The notes under the pieces are model-generated. The model made no database searches and was not told the DNA's origin. It saw nothing but the letters and a program-made list of their open reading frames with translations. A DNA stretch of 64,000 bases from a virus: UHGV virus genome UHGV-1351770; one strand, written 5' to 3'. Shown piece by piece: positions 1-32,621 of this stretch; position 1 is the stretch's first letter; every line of letters begins with the position of its first letter. The position numbers and the translations under genes are program-made.

Positions 1-26
1 CGGTTTACTTAACTCTACACAGAATT

Positions 27-109
27 TGGCGGGCCGTGTAGGATTCGAACCTACGTTGTCTTTCGACATGGATTAACAGTCCACCGCCAAACCGCTTGGC
101 TAACGACCC
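27..109 (-). tRNA. tRNA with anticodon GUU (Asn-type) and an unusually long 13-nt variable region; CCA encoded
   Basis: Read on the minus strand. Acceptor 31-37 pairs with 103-109 (two G-U wobbles). T arm gtagg/attcgaa/cctac at 38-54. Anticodon arm 68-84, loop rc ctgttaa. D arm gcca/tggc at 86-100. tgg at 27-29 is the encoded CCA. Confidence 0.7.
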
Positions 110-261
110 TAAATTTACATTGCTGACTAGGATTTTCACCTAGACGGAGTTAGCACCGTAGCGTGTAGCGGCATACCTCTCCAAACCGTGCCTCATCTTT
201 CAATTACGGAGACAGTGTTCCTACGCGTGCCTGAATTGATTTAACAATTCTTTCAGCAAAT

Positions 262-337
262 TGGACGACCGCATGAGATTTGAACTCACATAAAAAGGAT
301 TTGCAATCCTTCGCCTAAGCCATTCAGCCAACGGTCG
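262..337 (-). tRNA. tRNA-Cys (GCA), 76 nt with encoded CCA
   Basis: Acceptor cgaccgc pairs with acggtcg. T loop atttgaa. Anticodon stem aagga/tcctt with loop rc ttgcaaa (U33, GCA, A37). Confidence 0.75.
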
Positions 338-359
338 ATTTATCTTGTTCTGTCATGTT

Positions 360-403
360 GCTTCTCCAGTTCAATTTATGTAATTATTATACAGAACTTT
401 TGG
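360..403 (-). promoter_or_regulatory. Conserved early promoter/leader driving a 10-codon micro-ORF and tRNA-Cys
   Basis: rc: TATAATAATTACATAAATTGAACTGGAGAAGCAACATG. Confidence 0.6.
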
Positions 404-695
404 AAACTAAGCAACTACATTTTTTAAGAATTTGATGCCTTTCTTTTTTCTTCTTATATTTCCACGTTAATGGATTCTGTCGATTATAAACGCTTGAGAT
501 CTTTGTCTCGTCAAAGTTCTTCAATATCATGTAATCACAGGATAATTGTTCTAGTGGAATGTGATCCCCGTCAAAAGCGTATACATAAGGCTGTTGACTA
601 ACACGATAATGATAGACTTTGTTAATTCTACGTTTCAGCGACTTATCCGCGCAGTAAATAAAGAAGTTTTCAGGATGCATCAGCATCTCCTTCAA
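387..695 (-). CDS. Hypothetical small protein (102 aa), immediately downstream of a tRNA
   Basis: ORF in the dominant minus orientation. Lys-rich C terminus. No recognisable motif. Confidence 0.4.
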   Translation of the reverse strand: MKEMLMHPENFFIYCADKSLKRRINKVYHYRVSQQPYVYAFDGDHIPLEQLSCDYMILKNFDETKISSVYNRQNPLTWKYKKKKERHQILKKCSCLVSKSSV

Positions 696-697
696 TT

Positions 698-772
698 TGG
701 TGCACCCTGTTCGTATCGAACGAACCTCTCAAGCTCTTCAGGCAAGCGCTAATCCATCTCAGCTAAAGGTGC
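698..772 (-). tRNA. tRNA, 75 nt, with perfect acceptor and T arm; anticodon uncertain (best fold gives CUG, Gln-type, with C at position 33)
   Basis: CCA (tgg at 698-700). Acceptor gcaccct pairs with aaggtgc. T arm gttcg/tatcgaa/cgaac. The anticodon arm folds only as a 4-bp stem with loop rc gcctgaa. Confidence 0.55.
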
Positions 773-779
773 AAATTTT

Positions 780-850
780 TGGCAGGGGTAAAGGTATTCG
801 AAACCTTTTCATGGGTTTTGGAGGCCCATTTGCAACCTATGCGTACCCCA
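780..850 (-). ncRNA. tRNA-like element: canonical CCA-acceptor-T arm but a shortened body and a 9-nt loop displaying CCUCC
   Basis: tgg at 780-782. Acceptor aggggta. Perfect T arm aaggt/attcgaa/acctt at 791-807. Hairpin atggg-ttttggagg-cccat at 811-829. Only about 14 nt remain for the D region. The acceptor 3' side tacccca has one mismatch. Confidence 0.35.
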
Positions 851-859
851 ATTATTAAT

Positions 860-934
860 TGGCACACCCAACGAGGATCGAACTCGTGTTCCCACTGTGA
901 AAGAGTGGTGTCCTAACCGCTAGACGATAGGTGC
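860..934 (-). tRNA. tRNA-Glu (UUC)
   Basis: CCA encoded. Acceptor acaccca pairs with taggtgc (two wobbles). T arm acgag/gatcgaa/ctcgt. Anticodon stem ccact/agtgg with loop rc ctttcac. Confidence 0.75.
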
Positions 935-942
935 ATTAAATT

Positions 943-1030
943 TGGTGGGCGTTAATGGAGTCGAACCACTCGAGTCGCAATGACCAGGGATTTACAATCC
1001 CCTCCGCTACCACTTACGGAATAAACGCCC
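943..1030 (-). tRNA. tRNA-Tyr (GUA), class II with long variable arm, 88 nt with CCA
   Basis: Acceptor gggcgtt pairs with aacgccc (perfect). T loop agtcgaa. 14-nt variable region. Anticodon loop rc ttgtaaa. 3-bp D stem typical of class II tRNAs. Confidence 0.75.
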
Positions 1031-1111
1031 ATATTTAGAAGTATTCAAATACTAGTTTAAACACTTTTAAATATGTTTCCAAATTAGATAACTATTATAT
1101 CAAGTTTTAAG

Positions 1112-1150
1112 GCACTGAGCAAGTCAGATTTTGAAGAACTTGCTCAGTGC
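1112..1150 (-). terminator. Perfect 13-bp hairpin (gcactgagcaagt / acttgctcagtgc) downstream of ORF 1159-1434
   Basis: Inverted repeat read directly. Weak U tract. Confidence 0.45.
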
Positions 1151-1158
1151 TGTATTAG

Positions 1159-1434
1159 TTAGTCGAATTTAGGAGTGACAGTTAAGGAGAACGGAAGTTC
1201 GAAAACCTCTTCACCCTCATTACTAACGGTAACTACACGACCTTTAAGTTCAGACATTGAAATATCAATATCAGCTTTTGCATCTGGAGCCATGCCAGCT
1301 TCAATACACTTAGCTTTAACTTCCGGTAAAAGCTCTACATTATAGAGATAAAGCCACTCAATCTCACCTTCCCAGTCTTCCCAGGATTTACAGATTGCAC
1401 TTTCAATACCAGTTGCTACAACACGATTTTGCAT
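1159..1434 (-). CDS. Hypothetical acidic protein (91 aa)
   Basis: ORF preceded by a conserved early promoter/leader at 1444-1482 and followed by a 13-bp perfect hairpin. Confidence 0.55.
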   Translation of the reverse strand: MQNRVVATGIESAICKSWEDWEGEIEWLYLYNVELLPEVKAKCIEAGMAPDAKADIDISMSELKGRVVTVSNEGEEVFELPFSLTVTPKFD

Positions 1435-1524
1435 TAGTTAATTCCTTCATCAATTTATATAACTATTATATCAGAAATTTAAAGTAAAAGGCAAGTACAT
1501 TTTTAAAAATTCTGTTTGGAGGAG

Positions 1525-1731
1525 CTAAACTCCAGATTCTTCGGCCAAGTCTAAACTAATAAGAGTTATAGCCATAATTGCCGCACCATGTTCTTTTTCT
1601 CCGGTGTTTTTAGCAGAGTCTATAATATCCTTAATCTGTTCGTAATAACTTTTTACTTCTTGTTCAATGCCTGCCTCGGCTATCATGCCTTTAGCCATGA
1701 ATCGTTGCATGGTAATTTCAGGATTAGCCAT
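1525..1731 (-). CDS. Hypothetical protein (68 aa)
   Basis: SD GGAGAAA 6 nt before the ATG. Translationally coupled to an upstream small ORF. Confidence 0.55.
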   Translation of the reverse strand: MANPEITMQRFMAKGMIAEAGIEQEVKSYYEQIKDIIDSAKNTGEKEHGAAIMAITLISLDLAEESGV

Positions 1732-1891
1732 GTTGTTTCTCCAGTTTCATTTTTAATAGTTTACAGATGAAATCAACGTCTTCATCTGTGCCTAAGTCTC
1801 TATCCTCAAGGGTCGCCTTGAAGTTTTTCGTCAATTCCATGAGGATGACTTCCCTAGAACGACGTGTTGGAGGCGGAGGAGGTCTATACAT
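1724..1891 (-). CDS. Small ORF not in the ORF track (55 aa, MYRPPPPPTRR...), stop overlaps the next ATG (ATGGCTAA)
   Basis: ATG at 1891 with AAGGAA SD. Proline run at the N terminus. Falls below the 60-aa cutoff of the ORF track. Confidence 0.4.
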   Translation of the reverse strand: MYRPPPPPTRRSREVILMELTKNFKATLEDRDLGTDEDVDFICKLLKMKLEKQHG

Positions 1892-1906
1892 CTTAATTCC
1901 TTAATT

Positions 1907-1983
1907 TGGTAGGGGTGGTGGGATTCGAACCCACAAAACCTGAATTTTAAGTCCAGTACCTATGCCAATTCGATTACACCCCC
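1907..1983 (-). tRNA. tRNA with anticodon UAA (Leu-type reading UUA) but class I size, 77 nt with CCA
   Basis: Acceptor aggggtg pairs with caccccc. T arm gtggg/attcgaa/cccac. 5-nt variable region. Anticodon stem ctgaa/tccag (one G-U) with loop rc cttaaaa. Confidence 0.6.
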
Positions 1984-2084
1984 ATGTAATCAGTTTATTA
2001 GTTGATACATATTATAGCCTAGAGAAAACCCTACTACTAATCCTACGAACCAACCAATATAATAATCTTTTAGTTTCACAGGTA

Positions 2085-2270
2085 TTATCCTCGTTCAATA
2101 TCTAGGGAAATACCGCAGTTAGGATTAATACCTGTACCCTTGCAATTTGGGCAAACCCAGATATTGCAAAAAGTATCTCCTGCTTCTGCATCAGAACTTT
2201 CACCAATTCCCCTACACTCAGGGCAGGCACATTCTTCTAGCTCTTGCTTGAGTTCTTGAAACTTAGACAT
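2085..2270 (-). CDS. Small Cys-rich zinc-ribbon-like protein (61 aa; CPEC...CPNC)
   Basis: Two CxxC pairs plus additional Cys residues. Same orientation as the neighbouring genes. Confidence 0.5.
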   Translation of the reverse strand: MSKFQELKQELEECACPECRGIGESSDAEAGDTFCNIWVCPNCKGTGINPNCGISLDIERG

Positions 2271-2279
2271 ATAGTCTCC

Positions 2280-2468
2280 TTAGTCAATTACTTTTGAGGC
2301 TTCAAGGTAGTCAATATAGTGTACGTTTTCTACCGTAATCATATAATCCGCCACTTTATCCATAGCTTGAGCTTCAGAGGTAGCTCTGACTAATCTATAT
2401 CCTTTTTTATATTCATCCGGGTATTCTCTATCTTGAATAAACACAACATAAACTATATATAGATCCAT
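2280..2468 (-). CDS. Hypothetical protein (62 aa)
   Basis: ORF lying between tRNAs in the gene-dense early region. Confidence 0.4.
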   Translation of the reverse strand: MDLYIVYVVFIQDREYPDEYKKGYRLVRATSEAQAMDKVADYMITVENVHYIDYLEASKVID

Positions 2469-2486
2469 TTGTGACCTCTATTTAAT

Positions 2487-2564
2487 TGGTGGCTCCCCGA
2501 GGATTCGAACCTACGTACCTTCCGGTTATGAGCCGGGTGCTCATACCATATGAGCTTGAGAACC
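2487..2564 (-). tRNA. tRNA-like gene with CAU anticodon (Met/Ile2-type) and a non-canonical D region (7-bp hairpin) and T stem
   Basis: CCA encoded. Acceptor ggctccc pairs with gagaacc (two wobbles). T loop attcgaa, but the T stem has a bulge. Anticodon stem ccgg/ccgg with loop rc ctcataa. D region gctcata-cca-tatgagc. Confidence 0.5.
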
Positions 2565-2570
2565 AAAATC

Positions 2571-2659
2571 TGGCGGAAGAAGTGGGAATCGAACCCACAA
2601 GGCTATATTTCAAACCGACAGATTAGCAATCTGCTGCAATACCATTATGCTATTCTTCC
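2571..2659 (-). tRNA. tRNA-Ser (GCU), class II, 89 nt with CCA
   Basis: Acceptor ggaagaa pairs with ttcttcc (perfect). T arm gtggg/aatcgaa/cccac. Anticodon loop rc ttgctaa. 19-nt variable region. 3-bp D stem. Confidence 0.75.
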
Positions 2660-2680
2660 GAATTTATAAGATATATTATA

Positions 2681-3199
2681 TTAGAAATTTAACTTCATAG
2701 CAAGAAAATTTTTCAAGTTTTCGGTAGACATCTCATCCACATCTACAGGAGAAACAAATCCATTTAATTGTCTAGCAAACTTTTCACCAGCAGGATCATT
2801 GTCCCCAACAGCTACCACTTTAAAAGGTAGTAATTTCAGTTGCTTTAATAACGCTTTTCCTGGAGAAGAGCCCAACATTGCCAGGGCTGGATAACCAGCA
2901 TTATGTAACGCAACTGCCTTAAATACAGATTCAGCGATCAATACTACTTTTTCATCTCCATTGAGAGTTTCTAGTCCCCATACACACTGGGTAGTAGAAT
3001 AAGTAAAGTATTTAGCTTCAAAGGGGCACTTACCATGACCTTTTGGAGCAGAAGGATTATAAGTTTGATAGCCCCTCAACATCCCAGAGAAGTCATACAA
3101 CGGGACTGTTAGCCATCCCTCCGGACTTAACCAGCAATGATATTTATCTGTATCAAACCCTCTAGATAAGAGGTGCTGTGTTAGCTCATCAACATTCAT
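2681..3199 (-). CDS. TOPRIM-fold protein (172 aa); true start MNVDEL at 3199, since the ORF-track N-terminus reads through the promoter
   Basis: Conserved Glu (LIAESVF) and DxD (VVAVGDNDPAGE) motifs. Promoter/leader TATAATATATCTATAAATTTGAGAGAGG lies directly upstream of the ATG at 3199. Confidence 0.55.
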   Translation of the reverse strand: MNVDELTQHLLSRGFDTDKYHCWLSPEGWLTVPLYDFSGMLRGYQTYNPSAPKGHGKCPFEAKYFTYSTTQCVWGLETLNGDEKVVLIAESVFKAVALHNAGYPALAMLGSSPGKALLKQLKLLPFKVVAVGDNDPAGEKFARQLNGFVSPVDVDEMSTENLKNFLAMKLNF

Positions 3200-3204
3200 A
3201 TCTG

Positions 3205-3259
3205 ATTCCTCTCTCAAATTTATAGATATATTATACAGAGAATTTAGCATTCAAGCAAT
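3205..3259 (-). promoter_or_regulatory. Conserved early promoter/leader (minus strand) for the TOPRIM gene
   Basis: rc: TTGCTT-17-TATAATATATCTATAAATTTGAGAGAGG, then ATG. Confidence 0.7.
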
Positions 3260-3373
3260 CAAATTTTTTAACTTTTAGAGGAAAATCATATGGCACTTAA
3301 GGGTAGCAGATAAGTGGTGAGGACCAAAATTTGTGACCCCACTAAAAATCCGGGGGCAATTTTTAAAGACCCC

Positions 3374-3402
3374 TTGACATTTTCGCGGGGGTAGTGTAAA
3401 GT
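3374..3402 (+). promoter_or_regulatory. Sigma70 promoter TTGACA-17-TAAAGT driving the plus-strand cassette
   Basis: Exact -35 hexamer with a 17-bp spacer. AGGAGG SD follows. Confidence 0.65.
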
Positions 3403-3464
3403 ATATGTTATGGATGAGTGATCAAAGAGACACACATTTTCTATATACTAGGAGGTGTCAAAAA

Positions 3465-4451
3465 ATGACAGAAGAAGTAGCTAAGAGTCCTGAGACCGTC
3501 GCTAGCGTTGCAGCAGAACTGCACCGTCACGAGGAATCAGATAAGAAAAAGTGGGAGAAGGTCAGAGCCTACGAAGAAAAACATCGTGAACACGATGATG
3601 AAGAAGATGACGATGATGAGCATTGTCATAAATATGGAAAACATAAAATGCAAGAACCAGTAAACGTATTCACTAGTGGCTTCCCTGGCCTACTGGGTGG
3701 TTACCCAGCAAACGCAGGTGCTTTCGGTGGGGAAGGTATGGGTCTATTCGGAGCTATCCTAATCGGTGCTCTATTAACAGGCGGATTCGGTGGTTTCGGT
3801 GGATTCGGTGGACGTGGTGTAGTTGGTGAAGGTACCGCAGTTGATGCAGTACTTCAGAACCAAGATACCGCTAGTATTCTAGCAGCTATTAATACTACTC
3901 GTACAGAAGCTAACCAGGGTACTGGAGCTGTTTTAAGCGCAGTTAACAATGGTTTTAGCCAGACATCCCAAAACCAGAGCCGTGATACTCAGTCTGTACT
4001 AACTACGATCTATGGTACAGGTGCTAATCTGTCTAATCAGATCTGCCAGGAAACTCGCAACGTTATTCAGGGTCAGTTCGATCTTTCTCGCCAGATTGAT
4101 CAATCTTTCGCAGCTAACCAGATAGCTCGTGCACAAGATAAGTTTGATTCTGCACAGATCGCTTTCCAGCAGACTTTACAAACTAATAACCAGTTTGCCG
4201 CTGTTCAGGCTCAGATGTGTGCTAACCAGAACTCTCTGGAACGTCAGATTGCTGAATGTTGCTGTGAACTTCAGACTGCGATCGCTGGTGTAACTACTGC
4301 GCGTATCCAGGATGAGTTAGATGCATGTCGCCTACGTGAAGCAATCGCTGCAGGTAGCGGTGCTAACGGTCAGGTAATTAATCAAATCGCTTTAAGTCTT
4401 GGTGCTATCACTCAGACTCTGGCTGGTCTGCAGGCTAAACTGCCTGCTTAA
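3465..4451 (+). CDS. Low-complexity protein (328 aa): acidic/His-rich N terminus, Gly-zipper hydrophobic segment (GLFGAILIGALLTGGFGGFGGFGG), Gln/Asn/Thr-rich C-terminal domain with CCCEL
   Basis: AGGAGG SD 8 nt before the ATG at 3465. Own sigma70 promoter at 3374-3402. Opposite strand to its neighbours. E. coli-optimal codons (ctg, gct, ggt). Confidence 0.65.
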   Translation: MTEEVAKSPETVASVAAELHRHEESDKKKWEKVRAYEEKHREHDDEEDDDDEHCHKYGKHKMQEPVNVFTSGFPGLLGGYPANAGAFGGEGMGLFGAILIGALLTGGFGGFGGFGGRGVVGEGTAVDAVLQNQDTASILAAINTTRTEANQGTGAVLSAVNNGFSQTSQNQSRDTQSVLTTIYGTGANLSNQICQETRNVIQGQFDLSRQIDQSFAANQIARAQDKFDSAQIAFQQTLQTNNQFAAVQAQMCANQNSLERQIAECCCELQTAIAGVTTARIQDELDACRLREAIAAGSGANGQVINQIALSLGAITQTLAGLQAKLPA

Positions 4452-4472
4452 TATTAAGGGGAGGAGCCCATT

Positions 4473-4889
4473 ATGAGTAAATATGGTTTTGTAAATAACG
4501 GACTTAATCAAAGTATGGGCTCCCAGCAGCCCATTCCGGGTCTGGATAACCCCTACTTACAACAATTGCAACAGCGTTTAGCAGAAGCGCAACAGATGCA
4601 GCAACAACTCCAGCAAAACCCTGGAAGTGTGAGTCCTATGCAAATGATGCAGCAAATGGGCGGGCAGTCGCAAATGCCTCAACAAATGCAGCAACAGGTG
4701 CCGCAGCAGCAAGTTCAGCAACAAACCCAACAACCGCAGGTTTCTGCGGAAGGACAGGCAGTACTAGCCCTTTTCGAAGACTTCGCAAAGACAGAGGATG
4801 GGAAACAGCTTGTATCACTTATGGGTAAGTTTAATAGCTTCTGCCAAAGCCAGGTTGCAAAAGCTCAAAATGGTGGTAATAACTCCTAA
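4473..4889 (+). CDS. Gln-rich low-complexity protein (138 aa)
   Basis: GGGGAGG SD. About 35% Gln (QQLQQRLAEAQQMQQQLQQ...). Second gene of the cassette. Confidence 0.6.
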   Translation: MSKYGFVNNGLNQSMGSQQPIPGLDNPYLQQLQQRLAEAQQMQQQLQQNPGSVSPMQMMQQMGGQSQMPQQMQQQVPQQQVQQQTQQPQVSAEGQAVLALFEDFAKTEDGKQLVSLMGKFNSFCQSQVAKAQNGGNNS

Positions 4890-4898
4890 GGAGGAATT

Positions 4899-5093
4899 AT
4901 GTGTTGCAGAAAATCTGTTTCGTGCTGCCCAATGCCTGTAGCACGTTGTTGCTCTCCAGCAATGTTTACGCAAATACCGGCGTTCAATCCGTTTGCCTTT
5001 AAGCCTACTCTTATCCTGCCCCCTAGAGTAGATTTTCAGTCAAGATTGGCCTCCCGTATGGGTGGTTGCTGTAATAAGAGTATATGGTTCTAA
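4899..5093 (+). CDS. Cys-pair-rich peptide (64 aa; CC...CC...CC...CC)
   Basis: AGGAGG SD. Four CC doublets. Followed by a rho-independent terminator at 5108-5146. Confidence 0.5.
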   Translation: MCCRKSVSCCPMPVARCCSPAMFTQIPAFNPFAFKPTLILPPRVDFQSRLASRMGGCCNKSIWF

Positions 5094-5107
5094 AGAACCA
5101 AACAATA

Positions 5108-5146
5108 AAGCCCCTAGTCGAAAGACTTAGGGGCTTTTCTTTTATC
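5108..5146 (+). terminator. Rho-independent terminator of the plus-strand cassette
   Basis: gcccctagtc...gacttaggggc followed by ttttcttttat. Confidence 0.7.
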
Positions 5147-5149
5147 TTA

Positions 5150-5190
5150 AATACAGAAAAGCCCTGCGCTCTCCAGGGAACGCAGGGCTT
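5150..5190 (-). terminator. Rho-independent terminator for the SPFH gene (minus strand)
   Basis: agccctgcg/cgcagggct 9-bp stem; T-run on the minus strand. Confidence 0.65.
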
Positions 5191-5335
5191 ACTTCAGATG
5201 TTACGTGCGGATATTATTTATTACGCATATCCATAATCATTTGGCCATCATAGCCAGTACCTACCACAGTCTGTGGTACACCACCTTGATATTTCTGAGC
5301 ACGAATCATTTCAACTTCCAATTGCTTCCAACGAA

Positions 5336-6172
5336 TCATTTCAGGAGTAATAGTACGTTGCAGTGCGGCGTTAGCTTCAGCTTCTTTCTTAGCTGCGTAC
5401 AGTTTAGCGTCTGCGTCACGTTCATTAGCAATAGCTTGGTTGTTGCGAGCTTCACGGTCTGCTTCTGCCTGTTTAACTTTTGCTGTGCTTCTTGTTCAAC
5501 ACGAGCAAGTTCAGCTTTCGCAGCATTAACTTGCTCTTCACGAACTTTGGTATTCTGTACCTGTTCCATGATTACTGGAGGCAGGGTAATATCCTGAAGA
5601 AACACCTGCTTAACTGTGTAACCATATGGGCGTGCATACTCTTCAACTTCCTGTTGAATTGCAGTTTGCAATTGAGCCTGAATTTTAGCATCAAACAAAT
5701 CTTGTGCTTTTGGTACAGACTTACCAAACTCACGAATAGTAGACAGTAATTTTTCAGTTACATACTTGTCTAGTGCCTGATCCTGAGTACCTGCGTTAAT
5801 ACGGTTAATCGGTGCCTTAGAACCATCAAACTGCAACATAACAGTCAGGTCAACAGTGGATTTAAACTTATCCTGGCTAGGAACCTGAAGTTTATCTAAT
5901 TTTACAGCAATATCTTTTGTACTAAAAGTATCGAAAGATGCAAACGGGTTTACAAGATGGAAACCAGGCAATACTGGATTAGGATCTACTTTACCCAGGA
6001 ATGTTTGGGTTTTAACCGTACCATCAGAAACAATAGTATATGAATTAAAAGCTAGAATCAAGCCTGCTAAACCAACTACAGCACCAACTACAGCACCAAT
6101 ACCCCAACGTTTAATAGTACGAATTACTTTCTGCTCAGAAGTCAGTTCTTTCATATTTTTAGTATTAAACAT
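5336..6172 (-). pseudogene. SPFH/band-7 (HflK/prohibitin-like) membrane protein, frameshifted near 5478-5481; reading continues in the -1 frame to a TAA at 5214
   Basis: N-terminal TM helix plus SPFH domain. After ...ARVEQEAQQK the current frame turns into non-homologous text. The alternative frame encodes VKQAEADREARNNQAIANERDADAKLYAAKKEAEANAALQ..., which is HflK-like coiled coil. Confidence 0.6.
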
Positions 6173-6205
6173 ATGTTTCCTTTGTTTTAGTTACAGTTAA
6201 TAAAA

Positions 6206-6280
6206 TTGGCCGAGGTGACAGGATTCGAACCTGCATAAAGAAATTTAGAAGACTCCTGCCTCTCCCTTAGACTACACCCC
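6206..6280 (-). tRNA. tRNA-Arg (UCU), 75 nt with CCA
   Basis: Sense strand: CGGGGTG acceptor, D stem gtct/aggc, anticodon stem ggagt/atttc with loop cttctaa (U33, UCU, A37), T arm gcagg/ttcgaat/cctgt, acceptor cacctcg, G discriminator, CCA. Confidence 0.65.
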
Positions 6281-6776
6281 GTTTAGGCATTTTTAAGAAC
6301 TCTTATAAAAGCTCTTAAAGATACCCGACGGTAGGTAGGGTTAGCCCCCTCAGATTAAGCTCTGCAGCCCTTCCGTCAGACAATATCTTCCAGTTTAAGT
6401 CAGGGTGACTTAGTGGTTATGTCCTGCGGTATATTGAGGACTCGGTTAGGCTTGGGGTCATGACTTCCCACCTTTTGCTGCTACTCAACAGGAGTTATCG
6501 CGAATTACCTGTGCTATTGTGCACCATTAGTGACATCTCTCATGTCAGCATTTCCCACTTTGTGGATAGCTTGAAAAACTACTCCGATATGGAGAAAGAA
6601 CTTCACTACCCTAGAATACCTTCTAAAGTTCTTCTTTAGCCTGGACATAGTTAAATCGTAATAAAACTATTCAGCAGACTGGTTGGTTAGTCTGGAACCA
6701 ACTACCGCGTGGTTTAGGCAGTGCGCAACTAACCTCGGAAGCTTTTACGTTAAAAGCATCAGTTATCCAGTTCTTA

Positions 6777-6850
6777 CCGACCGTAGTATTCGAACCTACA
6801 TCTTCCACCAGTTACGGCTTGATAATACCAATTATACTAGGACGGCAGTG
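6777..6850 (-). ncRNA. Degenerate tRNA-like remnant (T-arm-like gtagt/attcgaa/cctac only)
   Basis: Canonical T loop at 6789-6795 with a 4-bp stem. No convincing acceptor or anticodon arm was found nearby. Confidence 0.2.
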
Positions 6851-7069
6851 TTACTACATAAGTGATTTCCACACCCCACTATTTATAAATTAGAGAAGAG
6901 TTTAGGGGAGAGGTTTCAGACGCCTCATTTTACACGTTTTAGCCACTAACCGGGATTGCCGCCCCCTGTGTACTAGTTTTACAACTAACCCACCGACTCT
7001 ATTCAACGAATCTTAGTGCTCGACGCATCTTACATTAAGACAAGTTCAGCGTAATCGGCTCGCTGTTCC

Positions 7070-7112
7070 CTAATTTATGAATATATTATACAGAATTTAA
7101 AGGCATTTAGCA
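7070..7112 (-). promoter_or_regulatory. Conserved early promoter directed into the 6290-7060 non-coding/tRNA-like tract
   Basis: rc of ctaatttatgaatatattatacagaatttaaag. No CDS follows. Confidence 0.55.
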
Positions 7113-7121
7113 AATAAATTT

Positions 7122-7565
7122 TTAATTAAATTCGCCAGCAATCTGAGCAGCAGTACCACCATCATAACGCCCAGAAAATTCTTCCTTAATCGCTTTCATC
7201 AGCATACCCTTTGTAATTCCAGGGTTTAGCTTAACTAATTCTGCAAAGTATTTACGAATCTCAGTATCAGATAACTGAGGAGGCAGATACTCCTGCAACC
7301 ACTTATTTAGAATGTATTCATACTGAGCAGACTGTAAGCTATAGCTATCAAGATCTCGACCATGAAGTTTAGCTTTCATCTGGTTAATGCTTTTTAGTTG
7401 AGCTTTGAGATAAGACACAAATTGTTCAGAAGTGATGAAATCTTTATCAATACGCTGAAGATCCCCGATTATGGTCTGGTAGCTTTTAGCGACTTCTTTA
7501 TCAGAACCATTAAACTTAGAATCCTGCAAAGCTCTACGCAAAACATCTAAAATATTCTCTTCCAT
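7122..7565 (-). CDS. GatB/YqeY-domain protein (147 aa)
   Basis: Resembles E. coli YqeY over its full length (YLP...LSDTEI, C-terminal K/G-rich tail). Confidence 0.5.
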   Translation of the reverse strand: MEENILDVLRRALQDSKFNGSDKEVAKSYQTIIGDLQRIDKDFITSEQFVSYLKAQLKSINQMKAKLHGRDLDSYSLQSAQYEYILNKWLQEYLPPQLSDTEIRKYFAELVKLNPGITKGMLMKAIKEEFSGRYDGGTAAQIAGEFN

Positions 7566-7735
7566 TATTTCATTCCTAACGCTTGGTTAAAAGATTGTTC
7601 TGTCATAACTGCTGAGACTTTGGCGAAATCAAACTTTTTAGGGTTAGTAGTAATTTCAGCCACGTTAGATGTTTTAACAGTTTTCGTAGTACGAATACCG
7701 CGAGTGTTAACACCAATAATTACAACTGATTTCAT
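7565..7735 (-). CDS. Small ORF (56 aa, MKSVVIIGVNTRGIR...), TAATG-coupled to the yqeY-like gene
   Basis: Promoter/leader TATAATACTTCCATAAACTAATGAGAGGAAG directly upstream. ATG at 7735. Confidence 0.45.
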   Translation of the reverse strand: MKSVVIIGVNTRGIRTTKTVKTSNVAEITTNPKKFDFAKVSAVMTEQSFNQALGMK

Positions 7736-7803
7736 ATTTCGCTTCCTCTCATTAGTTTATGGAAGTATTATACAGAAATTTAAGTATTTAAGCAAGTAAA
7801 TTT

Positions 7804-8271
7804 TTAAGTTTTAGTGACAACAGGTTTATAAAACGTATGTCCCTTAATCTTAGTTGTTTTCTTAAATTTCTTTGTCCAGTAAGGTTTATCTTTACCACTA
7901 TGGAAGTATAGTGCTCCATGTGTAGGATCTTGTGGTAAATCAACGTAGTATATCACTCTAGCTAAATTCTTAGCGGTTTGCCAAGCCTCATCGGTTTTAT
8001 CAACTTTTGGTCTCTTAGATACCCAAGAGAACTGGTTAGACTGATATACTACTTTACAGTAGGAATCTGGGAATTTACCGGAGTTTACACGGTTTTTAGT
8101 AACATGTGCAATCGCCGTCATTCCCTTTATGCCCTCACCACGACTCTCGAAATAGATATTTTTAGCAATGCAATCTATTTCTTTTGCATCGTGCGATGCC
8201 TGACTACTAAAGCTGAAGGTAAGGGCAGCTACTAAAAGCAAAGCTGCCTTCATTCTTTTTACTCCTGCCAA
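7804..8271 (-). CDS. Secreted SleB-like cell-wall hydrolase (Hydrolase_2 family) with signal peptide
   Basis: N-terminal signal sequence MKAALLLVAALTFSFSSQA. Motif YFESRGEGIKGMTAIAHVTKNR. Confidence 0.6.
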   Translation of the reverse strand: MAGVKRMKAALLLVAALTFSFSSQASHDAKEIDCIAKNIYFESRGEGIKGMTAIAHVTKNRVNSGKFPDSYCKVVYQSNQFSWVSKRPKVDKTDEAWQTAKNLARVIYYVDLPQDPTHGALYFHSGKDKPYWTKKFKKTTKIKGHTFYKPVVTKT

Positions 8272-8576
8272 TCATATTCAACACGATTGGGATTTTCTTT
8301 ATACCCTAAGTCAAGCAAATCATTACGCATATTTTGCTTAGCTACTGGGTTCGAGGTTACTAGTACCACTTTCTTTGGTCTCTGCCCAAATTCTAAGAGT
8401 AAACGAAGAATTTGATAACCTTCCATACCGTCTACAGCCAAGTCATTATCCATATAAACGAAATGGCCTGTGGTATCAGTTTTATTCAGAAACTCTACAG
8501 CGGCTTCTGGGGTTCGAATGATAATGTCCATTCCGTGAAGATTACGCACATCATCAATCAAAATATGAAAAGTCAT
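8259..8576 (-). CDS. Stand-alone CheY-like receiver (REC) domain protein (105 aa)
   Basis: ILIDD, phospho-acceptor context VYMDNDL, MEGYQILRLL, VVLVTSNP and downstream Lys all match REC beta/alpha landmarks. Overlaps the preceding gene by 13 nt. Confidence 0.45.
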   Translation of the reverse strand: MTFHILIDDVRNLHGMDIIIRTPEAAVEFLNKTDTTGHFVYMDNDLAVDGMEGYQILRLLLEFGQRPKKVVLVTSNPVAKQNMRNDLLDLGYKENPNRVEYDWQE

Positions 8577-9019
8577 AATAGCCTCGTTTCATCAATTTAA
8601 AAAATATATTATACATATAATTTAGTAGATTAGCAAATACATTTTTAAATTGTGAAACTAGTAAACCGATAAACAGCCTAGAGGCGCCACAGGCCATATC
8701 TTATGAGCCATGTACCTTTGATCTAGGGTTTGAATCATCAACGAATACTTTGCATCTTTTAGCTTTAGAAGTTTAGAAGTTTGAGTTCTTTAAACTTTTC
8801 AGCTTTCATACTTAAATGTTGATCTTTGAAGTTGTGTCGGTAATATCAACGACGCTTTGTTCTTACGTATCAGCTTAAAAGGCTGGTGTAATAAACATAA
8901 TCTCCAATAGATTATACTTTATAGTATGGTCAGCGGTCTTATTTAACCTCGTATTTCAACCGCTGCTGCGAGGTAAGATGCTTGGGCTTTCGTCTACCGA
9001 TTTACTAGCTTTTAACTTA

Positions 9020-9658
9020 TTATTCTACTTCAATGAAAGTAGAGGCGTTAGACTCGGACAGAACAAAGTCAACATTTGTTGCAAAGTCCTGGTATTCCTC
9101 GTCATGCTGCTTAATCAGCTTCTCCAGTTCCAGAGGATCAATCAAGAATGGAGTATTCTTGAGTTCCAGCAGGTTGAGCTGCATTTTAACTTCATCTTCG
9201 GAAGTTTTCTTATCGCGGGTAGCCATGCTATCCTGCAAACGCTCATATTTAGCATCAAACTGTGCTTTCTGCGTATTAAACTTAACCGTAGCGGCATGGA
9301 ACTGCTTACGCATGTTAGCCAGCAGTTGGGCTTTAAGTTCCATAGAACGCTTAGCTTCAATTGCTTCCGCAACAGTCATTTTACGAGAACCGATCTCAAC
9401 TATTGTTTCTGCATTGCTCTTAATCAGAGCAGATTTGATACTATCACGCTTAGACATCATATCCAGCAGAGATTGGAAATCAGTCTTAATACGGGTAGAC
9501 AGGGCATCTACTTCGATTGCAGCGCCAACTACAACCTGGTTTTTATCCTTACCTTCACCAACAGCGATCAGAAGCTGCTGTTCAGTAGCTTTACGGATTT
9601 TAGCTTCCAGAGATTTGATGGTTGCCAGAGCGCGAGTTTTAGAAATACGAGTAGTCAT
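9020..9658 (-). CDS. Hypothetical coiled-coil protein (212 aa)
   Basis: AAGGAAG SD. Heptad-like charged sequence. The overlapping plus-strand ORFs are low-complexity antisense artefacts. Confidence 0.55.
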   Translation of the reverse strand: MTTRISKTRALATIKSLEAKIRKATEQQLLIAVGEGKDKNQVVVGAAIEVDALSTRIKTDFQSLLDMMSKRDSIKSALIKSNAETIVEIGSRKMTVAEAIEAKRSMELKAQLLANMRKQFHAATVKFNTQKAQFDAKYERLQDSMATRDKKTSEDEVKMQLNLLELKNTPFLIDPLELEKLIKQHDEEYQDFATNVDFVLSESNASTFIEVE

Positions 9659-9711
9659 TATTTGCTTCCTTATATGAAGTTTGAGATTTGAATTTGTTTA
9701 AATTTGGTCTG

Positions 9712-31689: not shown

Positions 31690-31718
31690 TTGACATTTTC
31701 GCCGCTTAGGTATATACT
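31690..31718 (+). promoter_or_regulatory. Sigma70 promoter TTGACA-17-TATACT in the spacer between the ligase halves
   Basis: Exact -35 hexamer with a 17-bp spacer. Confidence 0.55.
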
Positions 31719-31838: not shown

Positions 31839-32621
31839 TTGATGAAAATCGAAATTCCAACACAATGTCCCTCTTGTGGTTCTAAGCTAGATCTTGTCAA
31901 CGGACAATTATTCTGTCGGAATAAGTCCAACTGTCCAGCGCAATCAAGTAAGTTAATTGAGAACTTCTGTTCAAAAATGAAGTTAAAGGGCTTTGGCCCA
32001 AAAACTATTGAGAAGCTGGAGCTGACGAAGATTTCAGAACTATTTTATCTAACCGAAGAAGATTTGGTTAGAGCCGTGGGTAGCAAGGTTGCCGCTAAGT
32101 TAATTAGCGAATTAAATACTAAAGTTCGCGGAGACATTGACTTTGGTTCAGTTCTCGGTTCTTTAGGAATCCCTCTAATTGGAGAGGTTGCAGCAAAGAA
32201 ATTATCCCAAAATTGCACTAGCTTCCATGATGTGAAGGCTGACGGCAAAGCTGGAGAAAACTATAGAGCCTGGCTAAATTCCCCACAAGGCAAGGATGTT
32301 ATTGAACTACCGTGGAAATTTTCAACTGGTATTAAGGGCACTAAAGCTAATATTATCACTACGGATGAATTAGTTGCCCAGCCAAATGGAATCGCGGTAT
32401 GTATTACCGGATCTTTGCAAGATTTTGCAAATAGAACGGATGCAACAAACTATTTAGAAAGTCTAGGGTATACGGTTAAGAAATCCGTTACTAAAGACGT
32501 CAAATACCTAATCTGTGAGGATGAATCAAAACGTTCTTCCTCATCTTATAAGAAAGCCGAAACGAATGGGATAGAAATCCTGTCGATTAAAGAACTATTG
32601 GAGAAAAATAATAATGTCTAA
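31839..32621 (+). CDS. ligA: NAD-dependent DNA ligase, C-terminal part (Zn finger, HhH, BRCT)
   Basis: CPSCGSKLDLVNGQLFCRNKSNCPAQ (Cys4 Zn finger), HhH region, BRCT-like ending. Confidence 0.75.
   Translation: MMKIEIPTQCPSCGSKLDLVNGQLFCRNKSNCPAQSSKLIENFCSKMKLKGFGPKTIEKLELTKISELFYLTEEDLVRAVGSKVAAKLISELNTKVRGDIDFGSVLGSLGIPLIGEVAAKKLSQNCTSFHDVKADGKAGENYRAWLNSPQGKDVIELPWKFSTGIKGTKANIITTDELVAQPNGIAVCITGSLQDFANRTDATNYLESLGYTVKKSVTKDVKYLICEDESKRSSSSYKKAETNGIEILSIKELLEKNNNV

What the first reader, a model, noticed from the sequence alone, without database searches (positions are those of the whole stretch)
3374..5146. Inverted, self-contained three-gene cassette encoding low-complexity proteins (Gly-zipper/His-acidic, Gln-rich, Cys-pair) inside the minus-strand early region
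All neighbouring genes run on the minus strand. This 1.8-kb unit alone is on the plus strand. It has its own sigma70 promoter (TTGACA-17-TAAAGT) rather than the TTGCTw/TATAATA early motif used everywhere else. Every gene has a strong AGGAGG-type SD, and the unit has a private rho-independent terminator (5108-5146). A back-to-back terminator (5150-5190) serves the oppositely oriented SPFH gene. Codon usage is E. coli-optimal (ctg, ggt, gct) against the AT-rich surroundings. Protein 1 (328 aa) has an acidic His-rich N terminus (HRHEESDKKKWEK...HREHDDEEDDDDEHCHKYGKHK), a glycine-zipper hydrophobic segment (GLFGAILIGALLTGGFGGFGGFGG) and a Gln/Asn/Thr-rich helical C-terminal domain containing CCCEL. 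Protein 2 is about 35% Gln (prion-like composition). Protein 3 is a 64-aa peptide with four CC doublets. I cannot place any of the three in a known family. The architecture (membrane-targeted low-complexity protein, Q-rich partner, Cys-rich peptide) looks like a moron-type accessory module such as superinfection exclusion, envelope modification, toxin or metal handling.
Basis: seen in the sequence. Interest (0 to 1): 0.78.

Follow-up and report, generated by a model that had tools for sequence, protein, structure and literature searches.

The report
Conserved mobile three-gene phage membrane operon
The flagged unit is a real, self-contained three-gene operon, already annotated without a function in phages T5 and BF23, that is dispensable in the laboratory, recurs as the same gene trio in several unrelated phage lineages, and probably builds an abundant cysteine-studded helical protein assembly on the host membrane.

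Summary
A plus-strand unit at 3360-5146 has its own promoter, three Shine-Dalgarno-led ORFs (328, 138 and 64 aa) and its own terminator, inside a minus-strand tRNA/early region of a T5-like phage.

It is not new as a feature. GenBank records of T5 and BF23 already annotate promoter P12, the three ORFs (T5.077, T5.078 and an untagged 64-aa CDS) and a bidirectional terminator. It is not an insertion specific to this genome: about 220-240 T5-like records carry it. The viable T5 st0 deletion removes it, so it is dispensable in the laboratory.

New here: the same trio, usually as an oppositely oriented island, occurs in distant ~110-kb relatives, KPP23-like Pseudomonas siphoviruses, an N4-like phage and a lambdoid-type contig between the antiterminator and the lysis genes. 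That is moron-like behaviour.

ORF1 has an acidic His-rich N-domain, one Gly/Phe-rich hydrophobic segment, and a long helical domain of period ~3.7 with an invariant C...CCC box. The box motif also occurs in Clostridium phage proteins and giant-virus bins. ORF3 is basic, and its cysteines come mostly as CC doublets.

No Pfam, NCBIfam, PADLOC or PDB match exists. Function is unproven. The best guess is a membrane-anchored accessory scaffold acting at the envelope; spanin and virion roles are disfavoured.

The parts
3360..3368 (+). A/T-rich upstream element (TTTTTAAAG) just 5' of the -35 hexamer; possible UP element
   Evidence: Columns invariant (TTTTAAAG) across window, T5, an Epseptimavirus-type locus, L005 and L006
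3374..3402 (+). Sigma70-type promoter TTGACA-17-TAAAGT (= 'promoter P12' of the T5/BF23 records)
   Evidence: Scan, 10/12 match. Annotated P12 in AY543070 and AJ604530. Same hexamers and spacing upstream of ORF1 in L005 and L006. Distinct from the 18 TTGCT-N16-18-TATAAT early-type promoters in the window
3450..3455 (+). Shine-Dalgarno AGGAGG for ORF1
   Evidence: Read directly from the sequence; annotated as RBS in BF23
3465..4451 (+). ORF1, 328 aa (T5.077 / BF23 'ORF 326aa'; PHROG 8119). N-terminal helix, acidic His-rich tract, Gly/Phe-rich hydrophobic segment, long helical C-domain with the C...CCC box
   Evidence: (E 2.7e-204). Fop 0.66
3741..3797 (+). Predicted membrane segment of ORF1 (aa 93-111, GLFGAILIGALLTGGFGGF)
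   Evidence: Kyte-Doolittle 19-residue maximum 1.72. Gly and Leu positions invariant in the family alignment
4218..4265 (+). Invariant cysteine box of ORF1 (C252 ... C265-C266-C267, 'QIAECCCELQ')
   Evidence: Invariant columns in A1. The same Q[IL]AECCCE[LV]K motif occurs in remote relatives
4457..4466 (+). Shine-Dalgarno (AAGGGGAGGAG) for ORF2
   Evidence: Read directly from the sequence; annotated as RBS in BF23
4473..4889 (+). ORF2, 138 aa (T5.078; PHROG 7894). N-terminal helix, variable Gln/Pro-rich linker, conserved C-terminal helical hairpin
   Evidence: (E 5.1e-80)
4887..4894 (+). Shine-Dalgarno TAAGGAGG for ORF3, overlapping the ORF2 stop codon
   Evidence: Read directly from the sequence; annotated as RBS in BF23
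4899..5093 (+). ORF3, 64 aa. Basic (+7), Pro/Phe-rich peptide starting MCC, with four CC doublets. Unannotated in most records
   Evidence: tblastn finds it in 222 records at 80-100% identity. Annotated in T5 AY543070 and BF23. Counterparts lie after ORF2 in six other lineages
5107..5146 (+). Rho-independent terminator of the cassette
   Evidence: dG -20.2 kcal/mol, z -4.5. Annotated in T5 as an 'efficient bidirectional rho-independent terminator'
5150..5190 (-). Convergent terminator of the SPFH/band-7 gene. Boundary of the unit, not part of it
   Evidence: 13-bp stem. dG -24.8, z -4.3

Best explanation
This is the T5.077-T5.078-'ORF 64aa' operon of T5-like phages. It is an autonomous, non-essential, moron-like accessory module transcribed by host sigma70 RNA polymerase from its own conserved promoter and closed by its own terminator.

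Shown:
- The three genes travel together as one unit through several unrelated phage lineages.
- ORF1 has one hydrophobic Gly/Phe-rich segment between an acidic His-rich N-domain and a ~200-aa helical domain. The hydrophobic period of that domain (~3.7) is that of 11-residue repeats rather than classical heptads.
- This helical domain carries an invariant C...CCC box.
- ORF2 is helix, flexible linker, helical hairpin.
- ORF3 is a basic Pro/Phe-rich peptide whose cysteines are mostly vicinal pairs.

Inferred:
- ORF1 is made in large amounts (strong promoter, strong SD, high codon bias) and inserts into the cytoplasmic membrane as a bitopic protein.
- It oligomerises through the long helices. 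The Cys box, together with ORF3's CC pairs, staples or loads the assembly through disulfides or bound metal. ORF2 bridges or caps it.
- The resulting membrane-anchored scaffold alters the envelope of the infected cell to the phage's advantage. The most plausible roles are excluding competing phages or blunting membrane-acting host defences. It is not part of replication, lysis or the virion.

Topology (which domain faces the periplasm) is unresolved.
For: - Identity with the annotated T5/BF23 unit.
- Dispensability: the T5 st0 junction T5p066|T5p079 removes the region.
- Conserved cis-elements.
- Different promoter class from the 18 early-type promoters.
- Trio conserved, mostly as an opposite-strand island (in KPP23 the downstream genes share its strand):
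  - distant ~110-kb relatives L005 and L006;
  - KPP23/RSP Pseudomonas siphoviruses;
  - an N4-like contig next to the vRNAP gene;
  - a lambdoid-type contig between the antiterminator and holin/lysozyme/Rz genes;
  - a fifth contig of unidentified type.
- ORF2-like and MCC-ORF3-like genes occur only beside ORF1-type genes.
- Hydrophobic segment KD 1.72, period 3.7, Cys positions, charges -15 (ORF1) and +7 (ORF3).
- All-helical model.
- High Fop of ORF1.
- Family members lie in early/replication or accessory regions, not structural modules, in Clostridium phages.
- KPP23 virion mass spectrometry lists nine proteins, none of them KPP23_072-074 (PMC4031330).
Against: - There is no direct expression, localisation, interaction or phenotype data for any family member.
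- The one T5-like RNA-seq data set I could reach did not show these genes; the stored supplementary file is truncated.
- AlphaFold confidence for ORF1 is low (pLDDT 50), so oligomer state and fold are unknown.
- Many remote CCC-box relatives lack any hydrophobic segment (45 of 48), so membrane anchoring is not a family-wide property.
- ORF2 and ORF3 have no signal peptides, which sits awkwardly with a periplasmic Cys-stapled complex.
- No PADLOC or other defence or anti-defence match.
- The exclusion/defence role rests only on analogy with what dispensable, mobile, membrane-directed phage operons usually do.
Confidence: 0.4

Rival explanations
1. Metal or thiol handling. The assembly binds or buffers soft metals or metalloids, or acts as a redox switch. 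It would use the vicinal cysteine pairs of ORF3, the CCC box of ORF1 and the His/Asp/Glu-rich N-terminal tract.
For: - ORF3 cysteines are mostly CC doublets in all seven lineages: 8/8, 4/4, 4/4, 8/8, 8/11, 4/6 and 4/4.
- The CCC box is invariant.
- His-rich acidic tracts recur near the N-terminus in close homologues (HHYHHHHHEHYEED). 16 of 48 remote CCC-box proteins also have 3 or more His in the first 70 residues.
- From my own knowledge, vicinal Cys pairs bind As(III) and Hg(II) in ArsD and MerT.
Against: - No match to any metal-binding family in Pfam or NCBIfam.
- The His-rich tract is the least conserved part of ORF1 and is absent from L005/L006-type homologues.
- There is no obvious reason for a lytic phage to need metal handling.
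- No transporter or enzyme partner is present.
Confidence: 0.15
2. Cytoplasmic-face scaffold or tether. The CCC helical domain and the two small proteins stay in the cytoplasm, and the short or acidic N-terminus is the part that crosses the membrane. The complex would organise a phage process such as replication or transcription at the membrane, as phi29 p16.7 does.
For: - Most remote relatives have neither a membrane segment nor a signal peptide, so the CCC domain works in a reducing compartment in them.
- ORF2 and ORF3 lack signal peptides.
- An Arg directly follows the Gly-rich segment in many members.
- Genes lie among nucleotide-metabolism, replication and recombination genes in T5-likes and in Clostridium phages.
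Against: - ORF1 is strongly acidic (-15) and has no nucleic-acid-binding domain.
- The T5 st0 deletion replicates normally enough to be a standard laboratory strain (plus my own knowledge).
- In other lineages the trio sits next to terminase/portal, vRNAP or lysis genes, so the neighbourhood is not consistent.
Confidence: 0.1
3. Spanin-like or membrane-fusion lysis accessory. ORF1 acts like an i-spanin or a class-I fusion protein (fusion-peptide-like segment plus long helices, with cysteines for covalent oligomers), and ORF3 acts as the partner.
For: - The only PDB sequence matches are influenza HA2 fusion peptide plus helix. They are sub-threshold (E 0.11-0.7) and share the hexamer GLFGAI.
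- The long helical domain carries cysteines, as spanins do.
- In one contig the trio lies next to holin, lysozyme and Rz genes.
- Spanin loss is tolerated in shaken laboratory cultures (my own knowledge).
Against: - T5, EPS7, SPC35, Stitch and others already have a recognised overlapped two-component spanin pair (Kongari 2018, PMC6139136). KPP23 also has one.
- ORF3 has no signal peptide or lipobox; it starts MCC.
- ORF1 carries a ~90-aa N-domain before the hydrophobic segment.
- Homologues with the same segment and CCC box exist in phages of Gram-positive Clostridium perfringens, which has no outer membrane.
- In the lambdoid-type contig the trio is on the strand opposite to the lysis genes.
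Confidence: 0.06
4. Virion or assembly component, such as a fibre, decoration or scaffolding protein made of long helices cross-linked by disulfides after release.
For: - Strong expression signals and ORF1 codon bias resemble those of structural genes.
- Remote relatives in giant-virus bins carry Pro/Cys-rich or Arg/Ser-rich tails typical of cross-linked or nucleic-acid-binding virion proteins.
- Much structural work on T5 has used the st0 strain, which lacks the cassette (plus my own knowledge), so a non-essential component could have been missed.
Against: - T5 st0 makes infectious virions without the cassette.
- KPP23 virion mass spectrometry did not find KPP23_072-074.
- The genes lie outside the structural modules in T5-likes and in Clostridium phages.
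- A membrane-type hydrophobic segment is unusual for a tailed-phage virion protein.
Confidence: 0.05
5. A recent foreign insertion specific to this genome, or a set of spurious ORFs.
For: Opposite strand, different promoter type and higher GC than the surroundings.
Against: - Present at the same place and orientation in T5, BF23 and about 220-240 records.
- ORF-level conservation extends to GC-rich Pseudomonas phages with unrelated DNA sequence.
- In ORF3, third-position variable sites (12) exceed first (5) and second (6) positions.
Confidence: 0.02

Closest known systems
T5.077 / T5.078 / unnamed 64-aa CDS of phage T5 (AY543070), and 'ORF 326aa / 138aa / 64aa' of BF23 (AJ604530), with promoter P12 and bidirectional terminator ter1
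   Same: The same unit. ORF1 is 81% identical to T5 by tblastn and ORF3 is 100% identical. The promoter, RBSs, terminator, flanking Toprim-like gene and SPFH gene are the same.
   Different: Nothing of substance. ORF1 differs mainly in the low-complexity acidic/His tract. All records call the products hypothetical; some mislabel ORF2 as a 'cAMP-dependent protein kinase catalytic subunit', evidently a low-complexity artefact of its Gln-rich region.
Morons of tailed phages (for example lambda bor/lom, or stx between Q and the lysis genes)
   Same: Own promoter and terminator, dispensable, compositionally distinct, found sporadically in unrelated phages. In one contig it sits exactly between the antiterminator and the holin.
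   Different: It is a fixed, long-resident part of strictly lytic T5-like genomes, not a variable prophage cargo. It has three co-transferred genes. No benefit to a lysogen is known.
Membrane-anchored superinfection-exclusion proteins (T4 Imm/Sp, T5 Llp, lactococcal Sie2009)
   Same: Non-essential, phage-encoded, and predicted to act at the cytoplasmic membrane or envelope. A functional analogy only.
   Different: No sequence or fold relationship. Those are single small proteins. Here a 328-aa helical protein comes with two partners and a cysteine signature. No exclusion phenotype has been tested.
Two-component spanins (lambda Rz/Rz1; the T5 overlapped spanin pair)
   Same: A membrane segment followed by a long helical domain with cysteines, plus a small Pro-rich partner peptide.
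   Different: No lipobox or signal peptide in ORF3. ORF1 has a large N-terminal domain. T5 already has spanins. Relatives occur in Gram-positive phages.
11-residue-repeat amphipathic helix proteins (apolipoproteins, group 3 LEA proteins, perilipins)
   Same: Hydrophobic period 3.66-3.7 across ORF1's C-domain and 48 remote relatives. Visible 11-mer repeats such as ATEKTAAAxQL and AVERNGGETRN.
   Different: Not members. The best Pfam Apolipoprotein score, in a remote relative, is 40.5 bits against a cut-off of 90. None of those families has the CCC box.

Membership tests
PHROG 8119 (ORF1) and PHROG 7894 (ORF2), both 'unknown function' | Full-length profile match | tested here: met
   E 2.7e-204 over 1-328 of 332 profile positions; E 5.1e-80 over 1-138 of 139. 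ORF3 matches no PHROG.
Moron (autonomous accessory transcription unit in a phage genome) | Own promoter and own terminator flanking the genes | tested here: met
   Promoter at 3374-3402, conserved in distant relatives. Terminator dG -20.2, z -4.5. Terminators also follow ORF3 in L006 and L007.
Moron (autonomous accessory transcription unit in a phage genome) | Dispensable for lytic growth | tested here: met
   The T5 st0 deletion junction T5p066|T5p079 removes the region that holds the cassette in wild-type T5.
Moron (autonomous accessory transcription unit in a phage genome) | Patchy distribution across otherwise unrelated phages; composition differs from the host genome | tested here: met
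   The trio occurs in T5-like, KPP23-like, N4-like, lambdoid-type and other contigs. GC is 0.46-0.47 against ~0.39. Within T5-likes it is nearly fixed, not patchy.
Moron (autonomous accessory transcription unit in a phage genome) | Expressed independently of the surrounding operon (classically from the prophage) | not testable with these tools
   No transcript data could be obtained. The Bas33 data set did not show these genes.
Two-component spanin (Rz/Rz1 type) | o-spanin is an outer-membrane lipoprotein with a signal peptide and lipobox Cys | tested here: not met
   ORF3 starts MCC(R/G/S/N) with no hydrophobic leader (maximum KD19 0.85).
Two-component spanin (Rz/Rz1 type) | i-spanin has an N-terminal transmembrane domain followed by a periplasmic coiled coil | tested here: inconclusive
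   A hydrophobic segment and a long helical C-domain exist. However, the segment lies at aa 93-111, after a 90-aa charged domain, and the topology is unknown.
Two-component spanin (Rz/Rz1 type) | Part of the lysis cassette; restricted to phages of didermic hosts; one spanin system per phage | tested here: not met
   The cassette is in the tRNA/early region. Relatives occur in Clostridium perfringens phages. T5-likes and KPP23 already have spanins.
Class I viral fusion protein (influenza HA2-like) | Significant sequence or fold similarity over the fusion peptide plus heptad-repeat core | tested here: not met
   Best PDB profile hits are HA2 chains at E 0.11-0.7, with 0 stretches passing on their own. 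The hydrophobic period is 3.7, not 3.5.
Transmembrane glycine zipper ((G/A/S)xxxGxxxG) | Gly at i, i+4, i+8 along one helix face | tested here: not met
   Core Gly residues are at 95, 100 and 105 (i+5), followed by GGF repeats. The segment is Gly-rich but has no canonical zipper register.
Known anti-phage defence or candidate defence proteins (PADLOC-DB) | Profile match to any of 5027 models | tested here: not met
   0 families for all three proteins at E up to 1.
Vicinal-cysteine metallochaperones and transporters (ArsD, MerT/MerF type) | Membership of the corresponding Pfam/NCBIfam families | tested here: not met
   No hit in Pfam or NCBIfam. Only the CC-pair feature is shared.
Virion structural protein | Detected in purified virions | tested here: inconclusive
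   KPP23 virion MS lists 9 proteins, not KPP23_072-074. The AKFV33 study identified only 4 gel bands. No deep proteome of a cassette-bearing T5-like phage was found.

The most novel reading that the evidence does not exclude
ORF1 is the phage prototype of a large, unnamed, virus-restricted superfamily. Its members are 11-residue-repeat helical proteins ending in a Q[IL]AECCCE[LV]K ... RLRDEL box, and they are shared by phages of Gram-negative and Gram-positive bacteria and by giant viruses of eukaryotes. In the ORF1 branch the protein has gained a membrane anchor and two obligate partners, one of them a peptide built around vicinal cysteine pairs. Together these form a previously undescribed kind of cysteine-stapled or metal-loaded membrane scaffold that phages exchange horizontally as a weapon in phage-phage or phage-defence conflict.
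Probability: 0.2. Interest if true: 0.7.

Novelty: new member of a known kind. Interest (0 to 1): 0.45.

Why it matters
T5 is a seventy-year-old model phage, and this operon has sat in its records as three hypothetical ORFs.

Three results turn it from an orphan curiosity into a defined experimental target. The same trio moves between T5-like, N4-like, lambdoid-type and Pseudomonas phages. It keeps its own promoter. It belongs to an unnamed cysteine-box helical family that reaches Clostridium phages and probably giant viruses.

The standard laboratory strain T5 st0 lacks the cassette. Any contribution it makes to exclusion, defence evasion, envelope physiology or even virion composition would therefore have been invisible in work done with that strain.

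If the function is exclusion or counter-defence, it would matter for choosing and engineering T5-like therapeutic and biocontrol phages, most of which carry the cassette.

Tried and rejected
Searches that returned nothing usable:
- Pfam, NCBIfam, PADLOC and PDB sequence searches of all three proteins gave nothing at or near threshold.
- AlphaFold2 of ORF1 with a 17-sequence alignment gave pLDDT 50. I did not run fold searches on it, because matches to such a model are meaningless.
- AlphaFold2 of ORF2 gave a confident 42-residue helical hairpin only. Foldseek against PDB returned no match.
- The search for related loci with the ORF1 alignment in IMG/VR returned only close T5-likes.
- Cluster look-ups of ten remote relatives gave no names or organisms.
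- tblastn of a membrane-less CCC-box protein against isolated phages found nothing.

Literature that led nowhere:
- Searches for the T5 locus tags found no paper.
- Bas33 RNA-seq/proteomics supplement (PMC13250531): the genes in the expected interval are all on one strand and the stored file is truncated, so I obtained no expression evidence.
- AKFV33 virion proteomics covers only four gel bands.

Hypotheses rejected:
- Spanin. T5 has its own spanins, ORF3 has no lipobox, and homologues occur in Gram-positive phages.
- Genome-specific insertion.
- 'Prion-like' significance of ORF2's Gln content, because the Gln-rich stretch is a variable linker.
- Early versus late classification from the promoter discriminator. 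Klimuk 2020 reports an ATATT consensus for early promoters. P12 has ATATG, and the distant relatives differ, so this is inconclusive.


Full report
**1. What is there**

The window comes from a T5-like phage (Demerecviridae, Tequintavirus). Positions 3300-5200 are 98-99% identical to phages such as BUCT632 and SSP1.

Three plus-strand ORFs lie at 3465-4451 (328 aa), 4473-4889 (138 aa) and 4899-5093 (64 aa). Each is preceded by a strong Shine-Dalgarno sequence, read directly.

- **Neighbours.** The flanking protein genes and all eight tRNA genes in 1-9000 are on the minus strand.
- **Promoter.** A TTGACA-17-TAAAGT promoter sits at 3374-3402. It differs in kind from the T5 early-type TTGCT-N16-18-TATAAT motif. 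That motif occurs 18 times in the window against 0.38 expected, always in the direction of the local genes.
- **Terminators.** A hairpin plus T-run at 5107-5146 folds at -20.2 kcal/mol (z -4.5). The convergent SPFH-gene terminator at 5190-5159 folds at -24.8 kcal/mol (z -4.3).

There are four small corrections:
- ORF2 is 27.5% Gln, not 35%.
- Only ORF1 has marked E. coli-type codon bias: Fop 0.66, against 0.47 and 0.44 for ORF2 and ORF3.
- The higher GC of the cassette does not come from third codon positions in ORF1, so amino-acid composition is the likely source.
- The Gly-rich segment lacks a canonical GxxxG register.

**2. It is already annotated, conserved and dispensable**

T5 record AY543070 annotates promoter P12, T5.077, T5.078, an unnamed 64-aa CDS and an 'efficient bidirectional rho-independent transcription terminator'. 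It then places a major single-strand nick just downstream. BF23 record AJ604530 annotates the same elements as ORF 326aa, 138aa and 64aa, with ribosome-binding sites.

- **Distribution.** DNA or protein searches find the unit in 222-241 phage records from Escherichia, Salmonella, Shigella, Klebsiella and Citrobacter hosts. The neighbouring Toprim-like gene is found at 80% identity or more in about 271 records. The cassette is therefore nearly, but not completely, fixed in the Tequintavirus/Epseptimavirus group.
- **Unannotated ORF3.** Most records leave ORF3 unannotated, although it is 80-100% identical at the protein level everywhere.
- **Dispensability.** The T5 st0 record joins T5p066 to T5p079. 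In wild-type T5 the cassette, the SPFH gene and the RNAX region lie between those points. The cassette is therefore dispensable for growth on laboratory E. coli.

The other half, an assigned function, is not met.

**3. The three genes are a unit that moves between phages**

The closest ORF1 relatives are all on ~110-kb T5-like contigs. More distant ones were traced to their contigs:

| Context | ORF1 identity | Arrangement |
|---|---|---|
| Two ~110-kb contigs (L005, L006) | ~40-46% | Plus-strand island with ORF2 and an MCC-starting ORF3 among minus-strand genes; same TTGACA-17-TA(A/G)AGT promoter about 55 nt upstream |
| Pseudomonas siphoviruses KPP23 and RSP (56% GC by the published KPP23 figure, ~63 kb) | ~44% in the A1 alignment (the 59.5% tblastn figure covers only the C-terminal half) | All three genes (KPP23_074, 073, 072), divergent from the terminase and portal genes, bracketed by terminators |
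| N4-like contig | ~41% | Trio next to the virion RNA polymerase gene, on the opposite strand to its neighbours |
| Lambdoid-type contig | remote (profile E 2e-79) | Trio between an antiterminator gene and a holin/lysozyme/Rz cassette, on the opposite strand. This is the classical moron position |
| A further contig (L085) | remote (profile E 5e-68) | Trio present |

An HMM of ORF2 and a scan for MCC-starting small ORFs find partners only beside ORF1-type genes, never beside the remote CCC-box proteins.

ORF3 counterparts share several features:
- an MCC start (MSC in the lambdoid-type contig);
- a second CC doublet after a Pro-Val (for example CCPMPVARCC against CCPMPVPRCC);
- an FNPF-like motif in several lineages;
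- a net positive charge;
- cysteines mostly in vicinal pairs.

Within T5-likes, ORF3 variable sites number 5, 6 and 12 at codon positions 1, 2 and 3. Together this shows that ORF3 is a real gene and that the three products function together.

In four non-T5 contexts a ~50-aa double zinc-ribbon protein with a basic tail is encoded divergently just upstream of ORF1. It gives only generic sub-threshold zinc-ribbon matches.

**4. The proteins**

*ORF1.* The family alignment and composition analysis show five parts:
- a conserved N-terminal helix;
- a variable acidic, often His-rich tract;
- a conserved KMQEPVNVFTNG motif;
- a Gly/Phe-rich hydrophobic segment (aa 93-111, Kyte-Doolittle 1.72);
- a ~200-residue Gln/Asn/Thr/Ala-rich domain with invariant C252 and C265-C267 and a nearly invariant C-terminal helix.

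AlphaFold2 predicts long helices throughout, at low confidence (pLDDT 50). The hydrophobic period of the C-domain is 3.7, the value for 11-residue repeats rather than heptads. ORF1 is acidic (net -15) and ORF3 is basic (+7).

*ORF2.* It is predicted as helix 27-48, a disordered Gln/Pro linker of variable length, and a confident helical hairpin at 92-133. Foldseek finds no PDB match.

None of the three proteins matches Pfam, NCBIfam, PADLOC or PDB sequences. The only PDB profile hits are influenza HA2 fusion peptide plus helix at E 0.11-0.7, which is a compositional resemblance and not homology.

**5. A wider family**

A profile search of 1.8 billion representative proteins gave 109 hits. The remote hits share a Q[IL]AECCCE[LV]K box followed by RLRDEL or GEATRALI. 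They match only unknown-function PHROGs: 8119, 9288, 16490 and 9415.

An exact scan of IMG/VR for DNA encoding AECCCExK found 48 loci, at least 12 of them in giant-virus bins. The 48 distinct proteins have these properties:
- median hydrophobic period 3.66;
- obvious 11-mer repeats;
- only 3 have a membrane-type segment;
- 16 have His-rich N-termini;
- many end in Pro/Cys-rich or Arg/Ser-rich tails.

Their scores against the ORF1 profile are marginal at database scale (best E 1.8e-4). I therefore treat the giant-virus link as probable, not proven.

Clostridium perfringens phages encode a 204-aa member with a clear membrane segment, GGFGGFGG, a CCC box and a Pro/Cys tail. The gene lies among anti-repressor, methyltransferase, recombination and thymidylate-synthase genes.

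Two environmental homologues contain in-frame TGA codons where relatives have Trp.

**6. What it most likely does**

*Shown:*
- an autonomous, conserved, dispensable transcription unit;
- co-inheritance of three genes across unrelated phages;
- one hydrophobic segment;
- a long 11/3-periodic helical domain;
- invariant cysteine patterns;
- expression signals and codon bias typical of an abundant product.

*Inferred:* ORF1 is an abundant bitopic inner-membrane protein that oligomerises through its helices. The CCC box and ORF3's CC pairs staple or load the assembly through disulfides or metal, and ORF2 bridges it. The scaffold changes the infected cell's envelope to the phage's benefit. Exclusion of competitors or protection against membrane-acting defences is the most plausible role.

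I put this at 0.4 overall. The structural half is much better supported than the functional half. Topology is open. The charge distribution around the segment is ambiguous. The existence of anchor-less, signal-less relatives and partners argues that the CCC domain may stay in the cytoplasm.

**7. Rivals**

- **Metal or thiol handling (0.15).** It is suggested by the vicinal cysteines and His-rich tracts. It has no family support, and the His tract is the least conserved part.
- **Cytoplasmic-face tether for a phage process (0.10).** It fits the anchor-less relatives and some neighbourhoods. ORF1 is acidic and has no nucleic-acid-binding domain.
- **Spanin-like or fusion role (0.06).** It is largely refuted. 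T5-likes and KPP23 have recognised spanins, ORF3 has no lipobox, and relatives occur in Gram-positive phages.
- **Virion component (0.05).** It is disfavoured by st0 viability, by KPP23 virion mass spectrometry and by gene position. Work done with st0 could not have detected such a component.
- **Genome-specific insertion or spurious ORFs.** Refuted.

**8. Novelty and score**

As a sequence feature this is already in GenBank. As biology it is uncharacterised.

What this analysis adds:
- the demonstration of dispensability from the st0 junction;
- the portability of the trio across at least five phage types;
- the reality and signature of ORF3;
- the 11-residue periodicity;
- the placement of ORF1 in a broad, unnamed cysteine-box family.

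I file it as a new member of a known kind, a moron-like accessory operon, whose proteins belong to no named family. Interest is 0.45: a specialist would find the cross-lineage trio and the cysteine signature intriguing and readily testable, but nothing here overturns current understanding.

Noticed in passing
window 5214-6172 (- strand), around 5476: The SPFH/band-7 gene (T5.080 homologue) has a 1-nt deletion relative to phage VAH1 (AACTTTTGC against AACCTTCTGC). The reading frame breaks: a 278-aa ORF with an out-of-frame tail, plus a separate 41-aa ORF carrying the true C-terminus. This is either a sequencing error or a pseudogene. A 12-nt in-frame insertion also lies near 6071-6082.
   Followed up: partly
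window 5159-5190, GCGC at 5166-5169: T5 and BF23 records place a major single-strand DNA interruption (the '32.6% nick', consensus PuGCGC) inside or next to the second terminator hairpin, just downstream of the cassette. The same GCGC-containing hairpin is present here.
   Followed up: no
window 386-36213: There are 18 exact TTGCT-N16-18-TATAAT early-type promoters against 0.38 expected. Thirteen are on the - strand up to 19.7 kb and five on the + strand from 21.9 kb, which marks a divergence point of early transcription near 19.7-21.9 kb.
   Followed up: partly
window 31690-31718 (+): A second promoter-like site shares the unusual start TTGACATTTTCGC, and an upstream AATTaTAAAG, with the cassette promoter. 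It lies upstream of the genes at 31842-33381, one of which has the highest codon bias in the window (Fop 0.83). It may define a small separate promoter class.
   Followed up: partly
L084 3744-3917 (-), L085 3759-3914 (-), L086 3756-3911 (-), L007 4746-4892 (-) / KPP23_075: In the non-T5 contexts a ~50-aa protein with two CxxC pairs and a basic C-terminal tail (...YC.P.C..RK.RR.KK) is encoded divergently, immediately upstream of ORF1. It may be a regulator of the cassette. It is absent from T5-likes.
   Followed up: partly
L010 4001-4786 and L012 5524-6327: Two environmental ORF1-family genes contain in-frame TGA codons at positions where relatives have Trp. This implies TGA-to-Trp decoding (code 4 hosts or recoded phages).
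   Followed up: partly
L081 4090-4530 (Clostridium phage HMD-PC1): The gene just upstream of the Clostridium CCC-box gene encodes a protein with a Gln/Pro-rich stretch (ALEQQFNQQQQPQPIQQVQQPQ) reminiscent of ORF2's N-terminal helix plus linker. It could be an analogous partner or a coincidence.
   Followed up: no
window 8978-9691: The strand here is ambiguous. One T5 record (st0, T5p083) annotates a + strand gene, while two others (AY587007 ORF080, VAH1_00096) annotate a 639-nt - strand gene over the same DNA. The + strand ORF has an atypical GC3 of 0.53.
   Followed up: no
T5 AY587007 38160-38950 against AY543070 38064-39029: One T5 genome record splits ORF1 into two ORFs (ORF072 and ORF073) and labels ORF2 'kapc, cAMP-dependent protein kinase catalytic subunit'. 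This spurious label has propagated to several newer phage records.
   Followed up: partly
window 6282-7100: The stretch between tRNA-Arg (6207-6281) and the gene at 7122-7565 holds only short ORFs (59 aa or fewer). It corresponds to 'RNAX, stable RNA with unknown functions' in the T5/BF23 records. This region is also removed by the st0 deletion.
   Followed up: no
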